Positions 1-20,118 of a stretch of DNA of 64,000 nt are shown here, piece after piece; position 1 is the stretch's first letter; each line of letters opens with the position of its first letter. The notes under the pieces are model-generated. The model did not search any database. It saw only the letters and a list, made by a program, of their open reading frames with translations, and was not told where the DNA came from. The stretch covers positions 1,920,001 to 1,984,000 of the forward strand of contig OZ219802.1 of NCBI GenBank assembly GCA_964291655.2, given 5' to 3'. The translations under genes were made by a program, and so were the position numbers. Source of the DNA: Chloroflexota bacterium. Its GTDB lineage: Bacteria > Chloroflexota > UBA11872 > VXOZ01.

Positions 1-3000
1 GTTGTAGCGCTGGCCGGCGCAGACCTCGCAGGGCACGTAGACGTCAGGCAGGAACTGCATTTCGATTTTGATGATGCCGTCGCCGCGGCAGGCCTCGCAA
101 CGGCCGCCCTTTACATTAAAAGAGAAGCGACCCGGCTTGTAGCCGCGCACGCGCGCCTCCGGCGTCTTGGCGAATATCTCGCGCATGGGCGTGAACGCGC
201 CAGTGTACGTCGCCGGGTTCGAGCGCGGCGTGCGTCCAATGGGCTGCTGGTTGATGTCGATGACCTTGTCGATGTTTTCCAGGCCCAGGATCGCGTCGTG
301 GGGGCCGGGACGCTCGCGGCTGTTGTAGATCTCCTGCGCCAGGCGGCGGTAGAGCACGTCGATGACGAGCGAACTCTTGCCCGAGCCGGAGACGCCGGTC
401 ACGCCGATAAGCCGTCCCAAAGGGAAGTCCACGTCGAGGCTTTTGAGATTATTGGCGCGGGCGCCTTTCACCGTAATTCTTGCTCTTCCCGCAGGCCCCG
501 AGCCTGCCGCAGCCGTTCGTCCTGAGCTTGTCGAAGGACCGTGACCGGACTTTGCCGCGAGCGCCTTTCCTGATTTCCCCGCAGGAGCCCGTGCTGAGCT
601 TGCCGCAGCCACTCGTCCTGACCCTCCTGCCGCAACCGTTTGCCCCGAGCCCCCCACATCCGTTCGCCCTGACCCTCCCGCAGCCGTTCGCCCTGAGCTT
701 GTCGAAGGGCCTTGTCCAGAGCCTGTCGCAGGACCACGCCGTTCCTGCGGCACCGGAATCACCCGCCGGCCGGTCAGGTAAGCCGCCGTCAGGGATTCGT
801 CCACCGCCATCACGTCCTCCAGCGGTCCCGCCGCCACGACGCGGCCGCCGTGCTCACCCGCGCCGGGCCCAATGTCGATCACGTGGTCGGCTGAGCGGAT
901 CGTCTCCTCATCATGCTCTACCACCAGCACGGTATTCCCCAGGTCGCGCAGGCCGCTCAAGGTCTCGATGAGACGACGGTTGTCCCGTTGGTGCAGGCCG
1001 ATGGAGGGCTCATCCAGGATGTAGAGCACACCCACCAGGCCGGAGCCAATCTGGGTCGCCAGGCGGATGCGCTGCGCCTCGCCGCCGGAAAGCGTGGCGG
1101 TGGCGCGATCAAGGGTGAGATAGTCCAGCCCCACGTTCTCCAGGAAGTGCAGCCGCGCCCGAATCTCCTTGAGAATCTGGCGGCCGATCAGGCGTTCCCG
1201 CTCGGTGAGCGGCAGCGCCTGGAACCAGGCGCGGGCGTCCTTCACGGCAAAGGCCGTTACCTGCGCGATAGTGTGAGCGTTGATCGTGACAGAAAGACTC
1301 TCCGGCTTCAGGCGCGCGCCCTGGCAAGCGGGACAGGGCTGCACGGTCATGAAGCGCTCGATTTCCCCGCGCATGTAATCGGAATCGGTCTCTTTGTAGC
1401 GCCGCTGTAAATTGGGGATCACGCCTTCGAAGTCCACCGTAAACGTGCGCATCTCGTCGCGGGCGGCCTTCACCGTTACGGGAACGCGCTCTTCAATGCC
1501 ATAGAGCAGGATATCTACATGCTCTGCTGCCAGCTCCGCCACCGGCACGCGCAAAGAGAAATTGTAGTGCTCTGCCACCGCTTTCACCACCTGATAGAGG
1601 TAGGAATCCTTGGCGGTGAGCCGCGACCACGGCAGAATGGCGCCCTCCATGGGCGAGAGCCGCTTGTTGGGCACGATGAGGTCGGGATCGAACACCATGG
1701 TCGTGCCGATGCCGGTGCACTCCGGGCACGCGCCGTGAGGGCTATTGAAGGAAAACGTGCGCGGCTCCACCTCGCCCAACGAAATGCCGCAGTGCACGCA
1801 GGCGAATTGCTCGGAGAAGAGGAGCTCGACCGGCTCCGTTCTTTCGCCGGAATGACGGGCAGATGGATTGTCGGTTTCTCCAGTATTAAGATCGGATGGA
1901 CTCCCGCTTTCGCGGGAGTGACGGGAAGGGTCTGTCTTTCCGGTCTCAGCAAATTGACCATCGGAGACTGGATTCCGGCTTTCGCCGGAATGACGATCGG
2001 CGGACGGTTTCCCGCTCTTTTCGTCGATTCCGCCTTCTCCGTCATTCCCACTTTGTCCGTCATTCCCGCGCACGCGGGAATCCATCTTCTCTTCGCTGCC
2101 GGTACTTGCGTTCACACGCAGGTTGGACACTGCCGCGTCTCCGCCGGATGGACTCCCGCTCGCGCCGGAGTGACGGGCAGGGTCTGTCTTTCCAGTCTCT
2201 GAGAATTGACCATCGGAGACTGGATTCCGGCTTTCGCCGGAATGACGGTCAGATGGATCCCCGCCTTCTCCGTCATTCCCGTGAAAACGGGAATCCATCT
2301 TCTCTTCGTTTCCGCCTCCGTCACCAACGATTAAATGAGACTCAGTCGAATCCTCTTCGGATGGACTCCCGCTTTCGCGGGAGTGACGGGCAGGGCCCGT
2401 CTTTCCGGTCTCAGCAAATTGACCATCGGAGACTGGATTCCGGCTTTCGCCGGAATGACGGCCTGCCCCGTCAACAATCACAATCCGCACCACACTGGAG
2501 CCCAACCGCAGCGCCGTCTCCAACGAGTCCGCCACGCGCGTCTTATCCGTCTCGCCGCCCCGGTTCACCAAGCGATCCACCACAATCTCGATTGTGTGCT
2601 GCTTATAGCGGTCCAGGGTTGGCGTTTCGTCCAAGTCGTAGACCGTGCCGTCCACGCGCACGCGCACGTAGCCCGCCTGGCGCGCGTCCTCAAACACCTG
2701 CCGGTACTCGCCTTTGCGGTCCTGCACGATAGGCGCCAGGATCATGTAGCGCGTGCCGTCGGGCAGGTCGAGCAGCGTGTCTACCATCTGCTGGACAGTC
2801 TGCTGGGAAATCTCGCGGCCGCATTCCGGACAGTGGGGCACGCCGATGCGGGCAAAGAGCAGGCGCAGGTAGTCATACACTTCCGTGACCGTGCCGACCG
2901 TGGAGCGCGGGTTGCGGCTGGCGCCCTTCTGGTCGATGGAAATGGCGGGTGAGAGACCGTCGATGTGGTCGACGTCCGGCTTTTCCAGCATGCCGAGAAA

Positions 3001-3195
3001 CTGGCGGGCGTAGGCCGAAAGAGACTCCACGTAACGCCGCTGCCCTTCGGCAAAGATGGTATCGAAGGCCAGGCTCGATTTGCCGGAGCCGGAGAGGCCG
3101 GTGATGACCACTAGCTTATCGCGCGGTATGTCGAGGTCGATGTTCTTCAGGTTGTGTTCGCGCGCGCCGCGGATGCCGATGTACTCTTCAGCCAT
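1..3195 (-). CDS. uvrA: Excinuclease ABC subunit A (3'-truncated by window edge) with two in-frame repeat-derived insertions
   Basis: ATG at 3195 reads [55 protein letters not shown]. Second half has [38 protein letters not shown] and the Zn finger [22 protein letters not shown] at the window edge, in the same frame. I translated both insertions by hand with no stops; the ORF track shows no stop-terminated ORF in this frame. Confidence 0.97.
484..732 (-). repeat. In-frame insertion 2 in uvrA: degenerate copies of the CCTTCGACAAGCTCAGG palindromic repeat (PSTSSGRT peptides)
   Basis: Translation [25 protein letters not shown]...[19 protein letters not shown] lies between IPVPQERR and [12 protein letters not shown]. 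The same DNA motif occurs intergenically near 5165, 20480, 30065, 45630, 61940 and 62125. Confidence 0.9.
1831..2466 (-). repeat. In-frame insertion 1 in uvrA: about 9 copies of the GTCATTCCGGCGAAAGCCGGAATCC palindrome (RPE-like)
   Basis: Translation [34 protein letters not shown]...[13 protein letters not shown]... lies between RIVIVDG and [15 protein letters not shown]. The core unit is triplicated. Confidence 0.93.
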
Positions 3196-3477
3196 GGAGT
3201 TTTGGGATCGCCTCTATTGGTGCTATACGGGGCACACAGCTACACGATATTGACCCTACGTAACATTCCGTGCGCAACGTCGAACAATGTTCGTTGACTT
3301 CGTCAAGGACGCGGAATCCGGAGTCTTTGCCACACGTAGTTCGCTGAGTTCAGGCCTCCAGATTCCTCACTGCGCTGCGCTCCGATCGGAATGACATGTA
3401 GGCAGAGCATTGCTGTGCATAGCAGTTTCGCGAATCAGTCTCCATGGTACCACGATGCCTCTCATTGAAGCAGACTA

Positions 3478-3506
3478 TTGACAGTCAACATTACATTGCA
3501 TATACT
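3478..3506 (+). promoter_or_regulatory. Sigma70-type promoter for the solute-binding protein gene
   Basis: TTGACA-N17-TATACT, about 100 bp upstream of AAGGAG and ATG 3608. Confidence 0.8.
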
Positions 3507-3607
3507 AACCGCAAGCGCTGGCGTATGCGGGCACGCCGGTCGTGTGTGTCAATAGACCCGCCGTATGTATAGGTGGTTTCATTCCAAAGACCCCCCTAAA
3601 AGGAGCA

Positions 3608-4990
3608 ATGGTCATGGAAGAGACACGATGTTCACGCCGTACGGTGCTGGCAGCAGTGCCGATAGTTGGCGGTGCAGCTATGCTCGCAGCTTGCGGCACG
3701 GCGCAGGTTGCCGCGCCGATGGAGGAGAAGTCAGCGCCTGAGGAGGAAGCCGAAGCCGCGCCCGCGCCGGCGGAAGACGTTGAGCTCACCTATCTCTCAC
3801 GCGATTCCGATAGCGCCACCCTCAAGGTGCGCGCGCTCTTCGACAAGTTTGAGGCGGCCAACCCCAACATCACCATTACAATCCAGAATATGTCCAGCGG
3901 TGATGAGGCGAAGACGAAGCTGCTCGTACAGGCAGCGTCGGGCGTACCCATTGACTTCCTGCGCACGAGCTGGGGCTCGTTCGCCGACCTCATCGAAGGC
4001 GAAATCCTGTCGCCCTTGGACGACTTCTTCAAGGCCGACGGCCTGGTGCCCGCAGAGCACTTCTTGCCAAACAGTCTGACCCACTGGACCGTCGGAGGGG
4101 TTCTGTACGGGTGGCCCGGCTCCGGTAACTGCGACGCCGTGCTGCTCAACAAGACAATGCTGGACAAGGCAGGCTTGGAGCCGCCGCCCATCGATCCCAC
4201 CGATGCTTCCTGGAATATGGATACGTTCCTTGAGTACGCCCGGGCGATGACGCAAGGCAACGAGCAGTTTGGGCACAATGGCGGCGTTTCCGCTTCCGAC
4301 GGCACGCGCGGCCACCAGCGCGGCGCGTACTTCGGCCAGATTTCTTGGGACGCTGAACGGCAGGTCGCCACGATGGACCATCCGAAGTTCATCGAGGGGC
4401 TGGCCTACTGGGTAGACCTCAAGCTCAAACACCGCGTGGTGCCGAGTGCGGAGGAGGCGGATAGTCTGGGCGCAGCCAATACCGGCAGGCGCGCCATCTG
4501 GGAAACCGGCAAAGTGGGCATGAACATCACCAACGGTTACCGGCAAGTGCCGTTTGAAGCCATCGGCGCGACTCTGCCGTTCAGCGCAGAGGTGAATATC
4601 TCCGGCCGCTCCTGGTTCCCGGCAATCCTCATCGGCTTTAGTCTGAACCCCGATGAGACGTGGCAGGTGAACCGTTGGATGATGGAGCCGGAACCCAATA
4701 CGGAGTTCACGCTAGCCATGGGGCACACGATTTCGGCGGTGCAGACGGCGGTGAATATGCCGGCCGAACAGCTCAAAGAGACTGTCGGGTTCGATGCCAT
4801 CGCCCACGCGGAACAAGCTAAGTTTAGCCCGCCGGCAAGCTACGGCATGAACGCCTACCCCACCTGGGGCGACGTCGGCACCGCTCTACGTCCGCACTTT
4901 GAGGCGTACGATGCCGGCGAACTGACGCCTGCGGAGTACGGCCGCGTGGCCACCGACATTATCAACGAACTCCTGGTTCCGAAGGAATAG
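3608..4990 (+). CDS. Extracellular solute-binding lipoprotein (carbohydrate ABC type), probable Tat signal
   Basis: SRRTVL twin-Arg-like motif and LAAC lipobox, A/P/E linker, FEAANPNITI and NKTMLDKAGL motifs. Start chosen by AAGGAG RBS. Confidence 0.85.
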   Translation: MVMEETRCSRRTVLAAVPIVGGAAMLAACGTAQVAAPMEEKSAPEEEAEAAPAPAEDVELTYLSRDSDSATLKVRALFDKFEAANPNITITIQNMSSGDEAKTKLLVQAASGVPIDFLRTSWGSFADLIEGEILSPLDDFFKADGLVPAEHFLPNSLTHWTVGGVLYGWPGSGNCDAVLLNKTMLDKAGLEPPPIDPTDASWNMDTFLEYARAMTQGNEQFGHNGGVSASDGTRGHQRGAYFGQISWDAERQVATMDHPKFIEGLAYWVDLKLKHRVVPSAEEADSLGAANTGRRAIWETGKVGMNITNGYRQVPFEAIGATLPFSAEVNISGRSWFPAILIGFSLNPDETWQVNRWMMEPEPNTEFTLAMGHTISAVQTAVNMPAEQLKETVGFDAIAHAEQAKFSPPASYGMNAYPTWGDVGTALRPHFEAYDAGELTPAEYGRVATDIINELLVPKE

Positions 4991-18126: not shown

Positions 18127-20118
18127 TTACTCGACGATTACCGCTTCCTGCTGGCCGGCGCGGATCTCGCGGATTTGGTCGCGGAGGAGCGCGGCGCGCT
18201 CGAAGTCCAGGTCTTTCGCCGCTTTGCGCATCTGCTTTTCAAGCTCCTTGATGAGCTTGGCCGACTCCTTGGCCGAGAGCGGTTTGTGCTCCGCCTGATA
18301 GCTCGATTCCTCTTCCGCCACGGCGCGAATGGTATCGGTAATGTCGCGGATCGCCTTGTGCACGCTCTCCGGCTGGATGCCGTGCTGATCGTTGAAGGCG
18401 ACCTGCTTTTCGCGGCGGCGGTAGGTCTCGTCGATGGCCCGGCGCATAGAATCGGTGACGTTGTCGGCATAGAGGACCACGTGGCCGTGGACATGCCGCG
18501 CGGCGCGCCCGATAGTCTGCACCAGCGAAGTCTCGCTGCGCAGGTAGCCTTCTTTATCCGCATCGAGAATCGCCACCAGCGACACTTCCGGCAGGTCCAG
18601 ACCCTCCCGCAGCAGGTTGATGCCCACCACCACGTCGTAGACCCCCAAGCGGAGGTCGCGCAGAATCTCAACGCGTTCGAGAGTGTCGATTTCCGAGTGG
18701 AGGTAGTGCACCTTGATGCCGATCTCGTTCAGGTATTCGGCGAGTTGCTCGGCCATGCGCTTGGTGAGGGTCGTAACTAATACGCGCTCGTGCTGCTCCA
18801 CCCGCTGACGGATTTGGCTGACGAGATGGTCTATCTGTCCGGCGGTGGGCTGGATCTCGATGGATGGGTCTACGAGGCCGGTCGGTCGAATGATCTGCTC
18901 CACCACCTGGCTGCTGCGTTCGCGCTCATACATGCTGGGCGTCGCGGACACGAAGACTACCTGGTTGAGCCGCTGCTCCAGCTCCTGGAACATGAGCGGC
19001 CGGTTGTCAAGCGCGCTGGGCAAACGGAAGCCGTAGTCCACCAGCACCTGCTTGCGGGAGCGGTCCCCGGCGTACATGCCGCGCAACTGCGGCACAGCCA
19101 CGTGGGACTCGTCGATGAACATCAGGAAGTCTTTGGGGAAATAGTCCAGCAGCGTCCACGAGGGATCCCCGGCGCTGCGGCCGTCCAGATGGCGGCTGTA
19201 GTTCTCAATGCCCTTGCAATGGCCGGTCTCGCGCAACATCTCCAGGTCAAAGTGGGTGCGTTGGAGCAGGCGCTGCGTCTCCAGGAGCTTGCCTTCGCGT
19301 TCGAGCTCGGCAATGCGTTCGTCGAGTTCCACCTCGATGTTCTTGACGGCGGATTCGATGCGCTCCACCGGTGTCACGAAGTGGCTCGCCGGATAGATGT
19401 TGATGGCCTGCCGCTGGTCGAGGATTTCGCCCGTGAGGGGATCGATCTCGATGATGCGGTCCACCTCGTCGCCAAAGAAGTCTATGCGTATCGCCGTGTC
19501 GCCATAGGCGGGAAAGATGTCGAGCACGTCGCCCTTCACGCGGTACGTGCCGCGCTTGAAGTCCACGTTATTGCGCTCGTACTGGATGTCGTTCAAGCGC
19601 CGTAACACGTTCTGGCGGCGGTATTGTTCACCCACGTTCAGCGGGACTACCACCTGCCCATAGTCGTGGGGCGAGCCCATGCCGTAGATGCAGGACACGC
19701 TGGCGACGATAATGACGTCCGGCCGTTCCAGCAAAGACCGCGTGGCCGAGAGCCGGAGTTTTTCTACCTCTTCGTTTACGTCGGAATCTTTCTCGATATA
19801 GGTATCCGTGCGGGGAAGGTACGCCTCAGGTTGGTAGTAATCGTAGTAGGAGACGAAGTATTCGACCGCGTTCTCCGGAAAGAAATCGCGAAACTCCGAG
19901 AAGAGTTGGGCGGCCAGAGTCTTATTGGGCGCTAGTACCAAGGCGGGTCTCTGAATGGCTTGAATGACCTGCGCCATGGTAAGGGTCTTGCCGGAACCGG
20001 TGACGCCAAGGAGGGTTTGAAAGGGATATTCAGCATGGCAACCACTGACCAGTTGGTCGATGGCTTCCGGCTGATCGCCGCGCGGCTCAAGCTCTGTGAC
20101 CAATTGAAACGGAGGCAC
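18127..20118 (-). CDS. uvrB: Excinuclease ABC subunit B
   Basis: [37 protein letters not shown]-terminal UVR domain [11 protein letters not shown]. Confidence 0.99.

What the first reader, a model, noticed from the sequence alone, without database searches (positions are those of the whole stretch)
1831..2466. UvrA carries an in-frame insertion of about 212 aa made entirely of selfish palindromic repeats
Seen: hand translation shows about 9 copies of the GTCATTCCGGCGAAAGCCGGAATCC palindrome, in both orientations and internally triplicated, with no stop. All are read in the hydrophilic frame (RHSGESRNP forward, MDSRFxGND reverse), giving an S/G/E/D-rich tract between the UvrB-binding region and the next CxxC. 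Known: single Rickettsia palindromic elements insert in-frame into genes. Inference: a whole expanding repeat array is tolerated or exapted as a disordered loop in a repair ATPase. Frame preservation over 636 bp implies selection for full-length UvrA. An alternative is removal of the highly structured segment at RNA level.
Basis: partly seen in the sequence, partly recalled or inferred. Interest (0 to 1): 0.82.

Follow-up and report, generated by a model that had tools for sequence, protein, structure and literature searches.

The report
Repeat arrays translated inside the UvrA repair protein
The DNA-repair gene uvrA of this sponge-associated Chloroflexota bacterium carries, in frame, a 213-residue tract made of short selfish DNA hairpins, an unusually large example of a kind of insertion already reported in the uvrA genes of a few other bacteria.

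Summary
uvrA lies on the minus strand and is 1245 aa, intact and single-copy. It holds an in-frame 213-aa tract (window 1828-2466) with 8 full and 1 truncated copies of a ~30-nt palindrome that occurs 173 times in the genome.

The tract replaces one residue at the end of the UvrB-binding domain, just before the next CxxC. A second 84-aa tract (478-729), built from another dispersed repeat, sits in the linker between the two ATPase halves.

All 17 genomes of the genus keep uvrA open. The 16 full-length ones have an identical 938-aa core, while site 1 spans 59-345 aa and site 2 spans 25-119 aa. Relatives outside the genus lack both inserts.

Core dN/dS is 0.02-0.10. Substitutions in the insert show little or no codon periodicity. 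The array grew by tandem duplication in place.

Best reading: tolerated selfish repeats in two permissive surface loops, filtered only for an open, hydrophilic frame. Exaptation, RNA-level removal, gene decay and misassembly are not supported.

The element fits the published CGTC-tagged REP class, already reported in frame in uvrA of other taxa (PMC3733652). This is therefore an extreme new member, not a new kind.

The parts
1..3195 (-). uvrA coding sequence, first 1065 codons. The gene runs 543 nt beyond the left window edge (537 nt of coding sequence plus the stop codon). The whole gene is G000:C2:1919458-1923195, 1245 aa.
2473..2802 (-). UvrB-binding (UvrA_inter) domain, aa 132-241, directly upstream of insert 1.
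   Evidence: Pfam PF17760, E 1.6e-38.
1828..2466 (-). Insert 1: in-frame 213-aa repeat array (aa 244-456). It replaces 1 residue of solved UvrA.
   Evidence: PDB alignment boundaries; translation; absent from relatives outside the genus.
2436..2457 (-). REP core 1, read RHSGESRNP.
2364..2385 (-). REP core 2 (ACTCC variant), read [10 protein letters not shown].
2274..2295 (+). REP core 3, opposite orientation, read [10 protein letters not shown]. Its loop is inverted in the sister species G008.
2223..2244 (-). REP core 4, read RHSGESRNP.
2151..2172 (-). REP core 5 (variant), read [10 protein letters not shown].
2104..2123 (-). Unrelated 8-bp-stem hairpin, read [10 protein letters not shown]. 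Not a member of the REP family.
   Evidence: offset 355 of the insert; sequence
2061..2082 (+). REP core 6, opposite orientation, read [10 protein letters not shown].
1971..1992 (-). REP core 7, read RHSGESRNP.
1899..1920 (-). REP core 8 (variant), read [10 protein letters not shown].
1842..1860 (-). Truncated ninth REP copy, read [10 protein letters not shown], at the 3' junction of the insert.
   Evidence: D3, I13; the same terminus occurs in relative P0015
1874..1996 (.). Copy 1 of the 123-nt composite unit (REP, 48-nt spacer, REP). The other copies are at 2126-2248 and 2339-2461.
   Evidence: D1. The 48-nt spacer occurs only 3 times in the genome, all inside this insert.
1789..1800 (-). 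CxxC (C466, C469) that follows the insert.
   Evidence: C466 invariant in 48 UvrA sequences
1354..1689 (-). UvrA DNA-binding (insertion) domain, aa 503-614.
   Evidence: Pfam PF17755, E 1.5e-34
478..729 (-). Insert 2: in-frame 84-aa G/A/S/R-rich tract (aa 823-906) in the linker between the two ATPase halves. It is built from a second, non-palindromic dispersed repeat read as PSTSSGRT, plus 24-nt tandem derivatives.
   Evidence: PDB alignment: 822 matches 629 and 907 matches 634; repeats; dispersed copies

Best explanation
Short REP-type DNA hairpins colonised two permissive surface loops of UvrA in the ancestor of this Chloroflexota genus. The hairpin has a CGTC tag, an 8-bp stem, a 4-nt loop and a CCA tail. 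One loop is the turn at the end of the UvrB-binding domain; the other is the linker between the two ATPase halves.

The arrays then grew and shrank in place, through tandem duplication and deletion between repeats and through further insertions. Because the cell needs full-length UvrA, only variants survive that keep the reading frame (lengths in multiples of 3, no stop) and that are read in a hydrophilic frame.

The result is a translated, length-hypervariable tract, probably disordered, that is tolerated rather than used.

Shown: the anatomy, the in-frame state, variability across species, purifying selection on the core, and duplication in place.
Inferred: that the tract is translated and disordered, that it is neutral for repair, and how the elements insert.
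For: 1. uvrA is intact (1245 aa) and is the only gene in the genome with a UvrA_DNA-bind match. uvrB and uvrC are present and open.
2. The palindrome is a dispersed family. There are 173 cores in 3.47 Mb, with consensus TCCGTCATTCCGGCGAAAGCCGGAATCCAG. 115 are single copies, and the uvrA cluster of 8 is the largest.
3. All 17 of 17 genomes of the genus have an open uvrA with no stops. In 16 of 16 full-length genes the core is exactly 938 aa, while site 1 is 59-345 aa and site 2 is 25-119 aa.
4. 14 further protein clusters show the same picture. 11 of them have a 938-aa core. P0015 came out at 939 aa with an anchor one residue off.
5. At site 1, 36 of 37 UvrA sequences from outside the genus have only a short turn of 15-28 residues between the anchors, and one has 53. 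These 37 include five from other genera of the same class. Those five also lack site 2.
6. Core dN/dS is 0.018-0.101 in 15 pairs.
7. Insert substitutions fall 7/9/8 over the three codon positions (24 in 426 nt, G000 versus G008), against 10/1/90 in the core. For G004 versus G005 the figures are 5/9/17 against 12/1/91.
8. Sister species differ in insert length in every pair on the tree.
9. Duplication happened in place. The 48-nt spacer of the composite unit occurs only 3 times in the genome, all in this insert. The unit spacings are 252 and 213 nt.
10. The uvrA frame has 0 stops in 17 of 17 genomes. The two other sense frames hold 26 and 135 stops in total and are open in 3 and 0 of 17. Mean hydropathy of the read frame is -0.9 to -1.7.
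11. In G011 a different palindrome family occupies site 1. That family has 126 strand matches in G011, against 11 in G000 and 15 in G010.
12. At least five other Pfam-recognisable genes of G000 carry copies in frame: HerA/DUF87, GT2, Eco57I methylase, MoeA and APH.
13. Contigs with 0 mismatches from run X1 bridge both junctions (1500-1921 and 2435-2800). X1 may be the source sample.
Against: - There is no direct evidence that the tract is translated or present in the mature protein.
- The insert diverges less (5.6-6.5% per site) than core third positions (9.6-9.7%). Some constraint, stem maintenance or gene conversion therefore acts, and the G004/G005 pair shows a mild third-position excess.
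- The hydrophilic-frame preference inside uvrA is not a set of independent events, because much of the array arose by duplication. Two other genes (MoeA, GT2) tolerate the hydrophobic VIPAKAGIQ frame.
- No mobilising enzyme was found. The one RAYT gene is flanked by a different palindrome.
- G020 has 100 strand matches of the same palindrome but no insert at site 1. Repeat load alone does not explain why uvrA is the target.
Confidence: 0.8

Rival explanations
1. The arrays are exapted. The acidic, disordered tract at the UvrB-binding domain and the basic tract in the inter-half linker tune UvrA-UvrB hand-off, DNA binding or repair fidelity. One version is the mutator effect proposed for REP-tagged repair genes.
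For: - Inserts are retained at both sites in 17 of 17 genomes and are never fully lost; the minima are 59 and 25 aa between the anchors.
- The net charges are opposite: site 1 is -17 and site 2 is +10.
- The insert diverges more slowly than core third positions.
- PMC3733652 argues that REP insertions in UvrABCD/RecBCD genes are unlikely to be fortuitous (passage read).
Against: - There is no codon periodicity in the closest pair: 7/9/8 against 10/1/90 in the core.
- Length varies 6-fold and sister species differ.
- A different repeat family fills the site in G011.
- The core is under strong purifying selection, which does not fit a degraded mutator allele.
- The same repeats sit in unrelated enzymes.
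Confidence: 0.13
2. The structured segment is removed after transcription or translation, by an intron-like or intein-like process, so mature UvrA is of canonical size.
For: The sense RNA of the insert is far more structured than shuffles: -308.6 against -232.5 +/- 8.0 kcal/mol, z = -9.5.
Against: - No Rfam family reaches its threshold. The best match is MIR8670 at 30.7 bits against a gathering score of 150.
- There is no intein or Hint Pfam match.
- The content next to the boundaries differs among species.
- Removal would make frame and hydrophilicity irrelevant, yet 17 of 17 genomes keep an open frame while the other sense frames hold 26 and 135 stops.
Confidence: 0.03
3. The gene is a decaying copy, or the insert is an assembly artefact.
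For: Repeats are a classic cause of misassembly, and short-read contigs break inside the array (table 8).
Against: - The gene is single-copy and its core dN/dS is 0.018-0.101.
- 17 independent genome assemblies and 14 further protein clusters show inserts at the same two sites.
- Exact contigs bridge both junctions.
Confidence: 0.02

Closest known systems
CGTC-tagged REPs, including intragenic ones in uvrA of Thioalkalivibrio and Opitutus terrae (Di Nocera et al. 2013, PMC3733652; passages read)
   Same: The element has the published anatomy: a CGTC tag, an 8-bp stem starting with AT, a 4-nt loop and a CCA tail. It is dispersed, with tens to hundreds of copies. It is found in frame inside genes of known function, including uvrA at two sites. 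No RAYT gene is flanked by it.
   Different: - Scale: 8 full plus 1 truncated units giving 213 aa here, and site 1 up to 345 aa between the anchors in G009. The paper reports 20-30 aa as typical and 43-82 aa for the largest clusters.
- Phylum: the paper lists CGTC repeats in five phyla, not Chloroflexi.
- Here the array is a composite that duplicated in place and varies among 17 species.
- I could not check whether the insertion sites coincide, because the paper's Additional file 3 is closed.
Rickettsia palindromic elements (RPEs; Ogata et al. 2000 and 2002, seen only as cited in PMC10969869 and PMC3733652)
   Same: Selfish palindromic DNA inserted in frame into genes that still encode functional proteins and tolerated at surface positions. 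PMC3733652 equates RPE-4 and RPE-6 with CGTC REPs.
   Different: RPEs are described as about 150 bp (PMC10969869), each encoding one conserved peptide, usually as single insertions, in an obligate intracellular alphaproteobacterium. Here the units are about 30 nt, form multi-unit arrays and occur in a sponge-associated Chloroflexota.
REPIN/RAYT systems (REP doublets moved by a REP-associated tyrosine transposase)
   Same: The genome encodes one RAYT (NF047646, 82.2 bits against a cut-off of 80). Some REP pairs are convergent doublets with a 21-22 nt spacer, at 4 loci.
   Different: The RAYT is flanked by a different palindrome: 3 copies on one side and 1 inverted copy on the other. No CGTC-type core lies within about 1.5 kb of it. 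No link to the uvrA palindrome is shown.

Membership tests
Class I UvrA (excinuclease ABC subunit A) | UvrB-binding domain and insertion (DNA-binding) domain set inside the first ATPase half | tested here: met
   PF17760 at aa 132-241 (E 1.6e-38) and PF17755 at aa 503-614 (E 1.5e-34)
Class I UvrA (excinuclease ABC subunit A) | Full-length collinearity with solved UvrA, including both ATPase halves and the CxxC zinc modules | tested here: met
   The alignment to 9gxk_A covers chain 21-261, 263-629 and 634-792 for the window part. The rest of the gene is intact. C466 is invariant in 48 sequences.
CGTC-tagged REP (PMC3733652) | Terminal CGTC tetranucleotide | tested here: met
   The consensus of 173 copies reads ..TCCGTC-ATTCCGGC..
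CGTC-tagged REP (PMC3733652) | Stem of 8-9 bp with A and T in the first two positions, and a loop of 4-5 nt | tested here: met
   ATTCCGGC / GAAA / GCCGGAAT. The ACTCC variant departs at stem position 2.
CGTC-tagged REP (PMC3733652) | Short unpaired 3' tail close to CCA | tested here: met
   The consensus ends ..GGAATCCAG
CGTC-tagged REP (PMC3733652) | No dedicated transposase gene flanked by the repeats | tested here: met
   The only Y1 transposase/RAYT match has 0 cores within the 3.2-kb locus and is flanked by another palindrome
Rickettsia palindromic element (RPE) | In-frame insertion into genes that remain functional | tested here: met
   Open frame in 17 of 17 genomes; core dN/dS 0.018-0.101. 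Function itself was not assayed.
Rickettsia palindromic element (RPE) | Element of about 150 bp encoding one conserved peptide | tested here: not met
   The conserved unit is about 30 nt. The longest matches outside uvrA are 43 nt or less.
REPIN/RAYT system | Cognate RAYT gene flanked by the same REPs | tested here: not met
MITE | 70-300 bp element with terminal inverted repeats | tested here: not met
   The unit is a single hairpin of about 30 nt. Target-site duplications were not examined.
Intein | Hint/intein domain within the insert | tested here: not met
   No such Pfam family at E <= 0.01 on the protein. Splice-junction residues were not analysed.

The most novel reading that the evidence does not exclude
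The two UvrA loops are preferred landing pads where hairpin repeats are repeatedly inserted and amplified. The resulting length-polymorphic tracts are acidic next to the UvrB-binding domain and basic in the inter-half linker. Under this reading they are a selected, evolvable tuning element of damage hand-off or repair fidelity in these sponge symbionts, a natural case of a functional disordered region born from selfish DNA.
Probability: 0.1. Interest if true: 0.75.

Novelty: new member of a known kind. Interest (0 to 1): 0.5.

Why it matters
This is the largest translated REP array I could document. Site 1 spans 217 aa between the anchors here and up to 345 aa in a congener; the largest figure in the passages I read is 82 aa.

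It also comes with a ready comparative series: about 30 natural alleles with an identical 938-aa core and freely varying inserts at two fixed loops.

That series bears on a question left open in PMC3733652: whether REP insertions in nucleotide-excision-repair genes are fortuitous or functional. Here the core is under strong purifying selection and the insert evolves with little protein-level constraint, which argues for tolerance.

The series also marks two positions in UvrA that accept hundreds of extra residues, which is useful for tagging or engineering. It shows as well how selfish hairpins can seed disordered protein segments.

Tried and rejected
- Rfam scan of window 1-4000 at E <= 1. 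Only three sub-threshold matches to a plant microRNA family (30.7 bits or less against a gathering score of 150), which I treat as hairpin noise.
- The search of protein representatives with the 212-aa tract. Only 6 hits at E <= 0.001. The five I fetched (P0003-P0007) read as repeat read-through ORFs. Four have no Pfam match and one has a sub-threshold match. P0002 (5670 aa) was not fetched. This says nothing about distribution, probably because of composition filtering and 50% clustering.
- Sequencing runs. All four laid runs are Logan contigs.
  - The RNA run X21 gave only 35-41-nt pieces on the palindromes and one 236-nt piece (1502-1737, 18 mismatches) from a relative. It therefore says nothing on transcription or removal of the insert.
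  - The listed joints between repeats carry unrelated letters in between and probably come from other loci or organisms.
  - No listed piece spans the whole stretch.
- Structure prediction to test disorder was not possible.
- Literature. A search for five peptide strings of the repeat found 0 papers. A search for sponge + Chloroflexi + repeat + symbiont + palindromic found 21 papers; I scanned the 12 listed titles and abstract openings and none concerned such repeats. The 'inserted in-frame' search gave nothing relevant among the 12 listed.
- The supplement of PMC3733652 (Additional file 3, positions of intragenic REPs) is closed. I could not compare insertion sites with Thioalkalivibrio or Opitutus uvrA.
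- A link between the RAYT gene and the uvrA palindrome was considered and rejected.
- Terminator scan. No minus-strand terminator-like site lies inside the insert. The total of 4 sites against 2.6 expected is not above chance.
Full report
OBSERVATION

The window's left end carries uvrA on the minus strand, starting at 3195 and running off the edge. Canonical UvrA in relatives of the same class is 954-982 aa.

Pfam places the UvrB-binding domain at aa 132-241 and the DNA-binding (insertion) domain at aa 503-614. In the alignment to solved UvrA 9gxk_A, query 1-243 matches chain 21-261, query 457-822 matches chain 263-629, and query 907-1065 matches chain 634-792.

There are therefore two insertions:
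- aa 244-456 (window 1828-2466, 213 aa), replacing one residue of the solved protein;
- aa 823-906 (window 478-729, 84 aa), replacing four residues.

For Mycobacterium tuberculosis UvrA, the UvrB-binding domain (residues 129-255) and the insertion domain (290-411) are described as joined by a stem bearing zinc modules 1 and 2 (PMC3167621, passage read). Our residue 457 aligns to residue 269 of that chain. The insert therefore sits at the exit of the UvrB-binding domain, nine residues before C466-x2-C469.

ANATOMY OF INSERT 1

The degenerate palindrome pattern hits 18 times in the window against 0.07 expected (0 of 100 shuffles reach 18). Eight of the hits lie within 1899-2457.

In the uvrA sense, six copies read RHSGESRNP or [10 protein letters not shown], and two copies in the opposite orientation read MDSR(F/V)(H/R)GNDG. 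A truncated ninth copy forms the 3' junction.

The tract is not pure palindrome:
- A 123-nt composite unit (REP, 48-nt spacer, variant REP) occurs three times at 82-85% identity, spaced 252 and 213 nt apart.
- The 48-nt spacer occurs nowhere else in the genome.
- An unrelated hairpin lies at 2104-2123.

The array therefore grew by segmental duplication in place, in steps that are multiples of three.

The sense RNA is very structured (z = -9.5 against 20 shuffles). No Rfam family reaches its threshold.

WHAT THE PALINDROME IS

The genome holds 173 cores. 115 are single copies and the uvrA cluster of 8 is the largest. Only about 30 nt are conserved, with consensus TCCGTC-ATTCCGGC-GAAA-GCCGGAAT-CCAG. 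Matches outside uvrA are 43 nt or less.

This is the anatomy published for CGTC-tagged REPs: a CGTC tag, an 8-9 bp stem starting with AT, a 4-5 nt loop and a CCA tail (PMC3733652, passages read).

That paper also states the following:
- Such REPs lack a dedicated transposase.
- REPs occur in frame in replication and repair genes. These include uvrA of Thioalkalivibrio (two sites) and both uvrA genes of Opitutus terrae.
- The largest REP-encoded regions it found were 43-82 aa.

In line with this, G000 has one RAYT gene (NF047646, 82.2 bits). It is flanked by a different palindrome and has no CGTC-type core nearby.

The strict pattern is present in 17 of 17 genomes of the genus, with 19-96 strand matches each and 0 for the reversed control. 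It is present in 3 of 5 outgroup genomes tested. One of these is G020, with 100 matches, whose UvrA has no insert at site 1.

COMPARATIVE EVIDENCE

All 17 genomes of the genus have an open uvrA without internal stops. One of them, G014, is cut by its contig end.

With fixed sequence anchors, 16 of 16 full-length genes have a core of exactly 938 aa. Site 1 spans 59-345 aa and site 2 spans 25-119 aa. The outgroup L018 has 6 aa between the same site 1 anchors.

In a 48-sequence alignment, 36 of the 37 sequences from outside the genus have 15-28 residues in the window that holds 227 in G000. One Chthonomonadales sequence has 53, so the turn is permissive elsewhere too.

A word-based search restricted to the tract returned 22 proteins, all with UvrA domains. 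Eight are identical to sequences already in hand and 14 are new. Of the new ones, 11 have a 938-aa core, 2 are truncated, and one (P0015) needed a separate anchor.

On a tree of the core, every pair of sister species differs in insert length.

In G011, site 1 holds a different palindrome family, read as HPNPLPRGEG-like peptides. That family is about ten-fold more abundant in G011 (126 strand matches) than in G000 (11) or G010 (15). The site appears to take up whichever family is abundant in the genome.

SELECTION

Core dN/dS against G000 is 0.018-0.101 in 15 pairs. There is only one UvrA_DNA-bind match in the genome. uvrB and uvrC are present and open. The gene is not decaying.

Inside the insert, the closest pair (G000 versus G008) shows 24 substitutions in 426 alignable nt, spread 7/9/8 over the codon positions. 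The core shows 10/1/90. G004 versus G005 shows 5/9/17 against 12/1/91. Four of the 24 changes are a single event: an inversion of a hairpin loop (TTTTCA to TGAAAA). This suggests the hairpin forms in DNA.

The read frame has 0 stops in 17 of 17 genomes. The other two sense frames carry 26 and 135 stops in total. The read frame is strongly hydrophilic.

Against a purely neutral view, the insert diverges less per site (5.6-6.5%) than core third positions (9.6-9.7%).

THE PHENOMENON IS GENOME-WIDE

Scanning stop-free frames around all 173 cores found copies deep inside long frames. Pfam confirms five host genes: a HerA/DUF87 ATPase, a family-2 glycosyltransferase, an Eco57I-type methylase (with an array), MoeA, and an APH-type kinase. 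In MoeA the MoCF_biosynth match spans aa 201-453 for a 144-position profile. A sixth host has only weak NapH-like matches.

The HerA-like ATPase, the Eco57I-type methylase, the APH-type kinase and the NapH-like host use the hydrophilic frame. MoeA and the glycosyltransferase use the VIPAKAGIQ frame. The frame preference is therefore a tendency, not a rule.

ASSEMBLY AND EXPRESSION

Runs labelled as sponge metagenomes are among those that hold parts of the stretch. In run X1, contigs with 0 mismatches cover 1500-1921 and 2435-2800 and tile most of the array. X1 may be the source sample. An independent study (X6) has a relative's contig reaching 34 nt into the array from the right flank.

The palindrome bins reach summed depths in the thousands in all four runs, including a metatranscriptome. 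The family is therefore abundant in these communities. No RNA contig informative for this uvrA was found.

VERDICT

The 'tolerated selfish array under selection for frame' reading is supported, while 'exapted' and 'RNA removal' are not.

The element belongs to the published CGTC-REP class, and REPs inside uvrA are already on record. The finding is therefore a new and extreme member of a known kind.

It is made more useful by the second insert, the roughly 30-allele natural series and the turnover of repeat families at one site.

The record title of the closest named relative (94% identity over the first 243 aa) reads 'MAG: Chloroflexota bacterium'.

Noticed in passing
window 478-729 (-): A second in-frame insert of 84 aa sits in the UvrA inter-half linker. 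It is built from a different, non-palindromic dispersed repeat (copies at 513-535 and 684-706, read PSTSSGRT) plus a 24-nt tandem array (636-698). It varies from 25 to 119 aa across the genus.
   Followed up: yes
G000 loci L033-L038 (C1:95331-97214, C1:488888-490060, C2:91593-94574, C2:389818-391449, C2:2267718-2269460, C2:2625192-2626553): Other genes carry the same palindromes in frame: HerA/DUF87, GT2, Eco57I-type methylase (with an array), MoeA (about 110 extra residues inside MoCF_biosynth, in the VIPAKAGIQ frame), a NapH-like protein and an APH-type kinase.
   Followed up: partly
L039:1399-2079 (-), flanks 1270-1296 and 2026-2187: The genome's single RAYT gene (NF047646) is flanked by a different palindrome, with three copies on one side and one inverted copy on the other. 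This REPtron-like layout is unrelated to the uvrA palindrome.
   Followed up: partly
L012 (G011 uvrA, site 1): In this one species site 1 is filled by another palindrome family (CTCTCCCTNNGGGAGAG). That family has 126 strand matches in G011, against 11 in G000 and 15 in G010.
   Followed up: yes
window 2274-2295 versus L009: The hairpin loop is inverted between sister species (TTTTCA versus TGAAAA) while the stems are unchanged. This changes [10 protein letters not shown] to MDSRENGNDG.
   Followed up: partly
L023 (G020 uvrA 3' end); G020 chromosome: The outgroup G020 has 100 strand matches of the same palindrome but no insert at site 1. Its UvrA C-terminal tail reads SFPRKRES, which looks like read-through of a palindrome. 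The listed copies switch from mostly + to mostly - strand near 3.1 Mb, a possible replication-strand bias.
   Followed up: no
G017, G019, G025, G027 (rows; L026, L028-L030): Outgroup genomes show uvrA-like open frames of 1938-2021 aa, each with two sets of matches to the query. These look like tandem or fused double UvrA.
   Followed up: no
window 8150, 10309, 12520, 12692, 17751, 17957, 42534, 59106, 59150, 61574: Ten further copies of the palindrome lie elsewhere in the window. Their genic or intergenic status was not examined.
   Followed up: no
L089 (Chthonomonadales MAG), UvrA site 1: An unrelated lineage has 53 residues in the site 1 window, where most UvrA have 15-21, and the extra residues are hydrophilic. 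The turn therefore tolerates insertions more generally. Some Caldilineaceae and Ktedonobacterales UvrA have 9-53 extra residues after the positions matching G000 aa 215 and 661.
   Followed up: no
window 1896-2467 in runs X1, X5, X6, X21: Bins over the palindrome reach summed contig depths in the thousands in all four laid runs (one labelled sponge metagenome) including a metatranscriptome. The repeat family seems shared by many members of these communities.
   Followed up: no
window 19378-19644 (-): uvrB (UvrB_inter match, 690-aa open frame) lies about 16 kb from uvrA in the same window.
   Followed up: no
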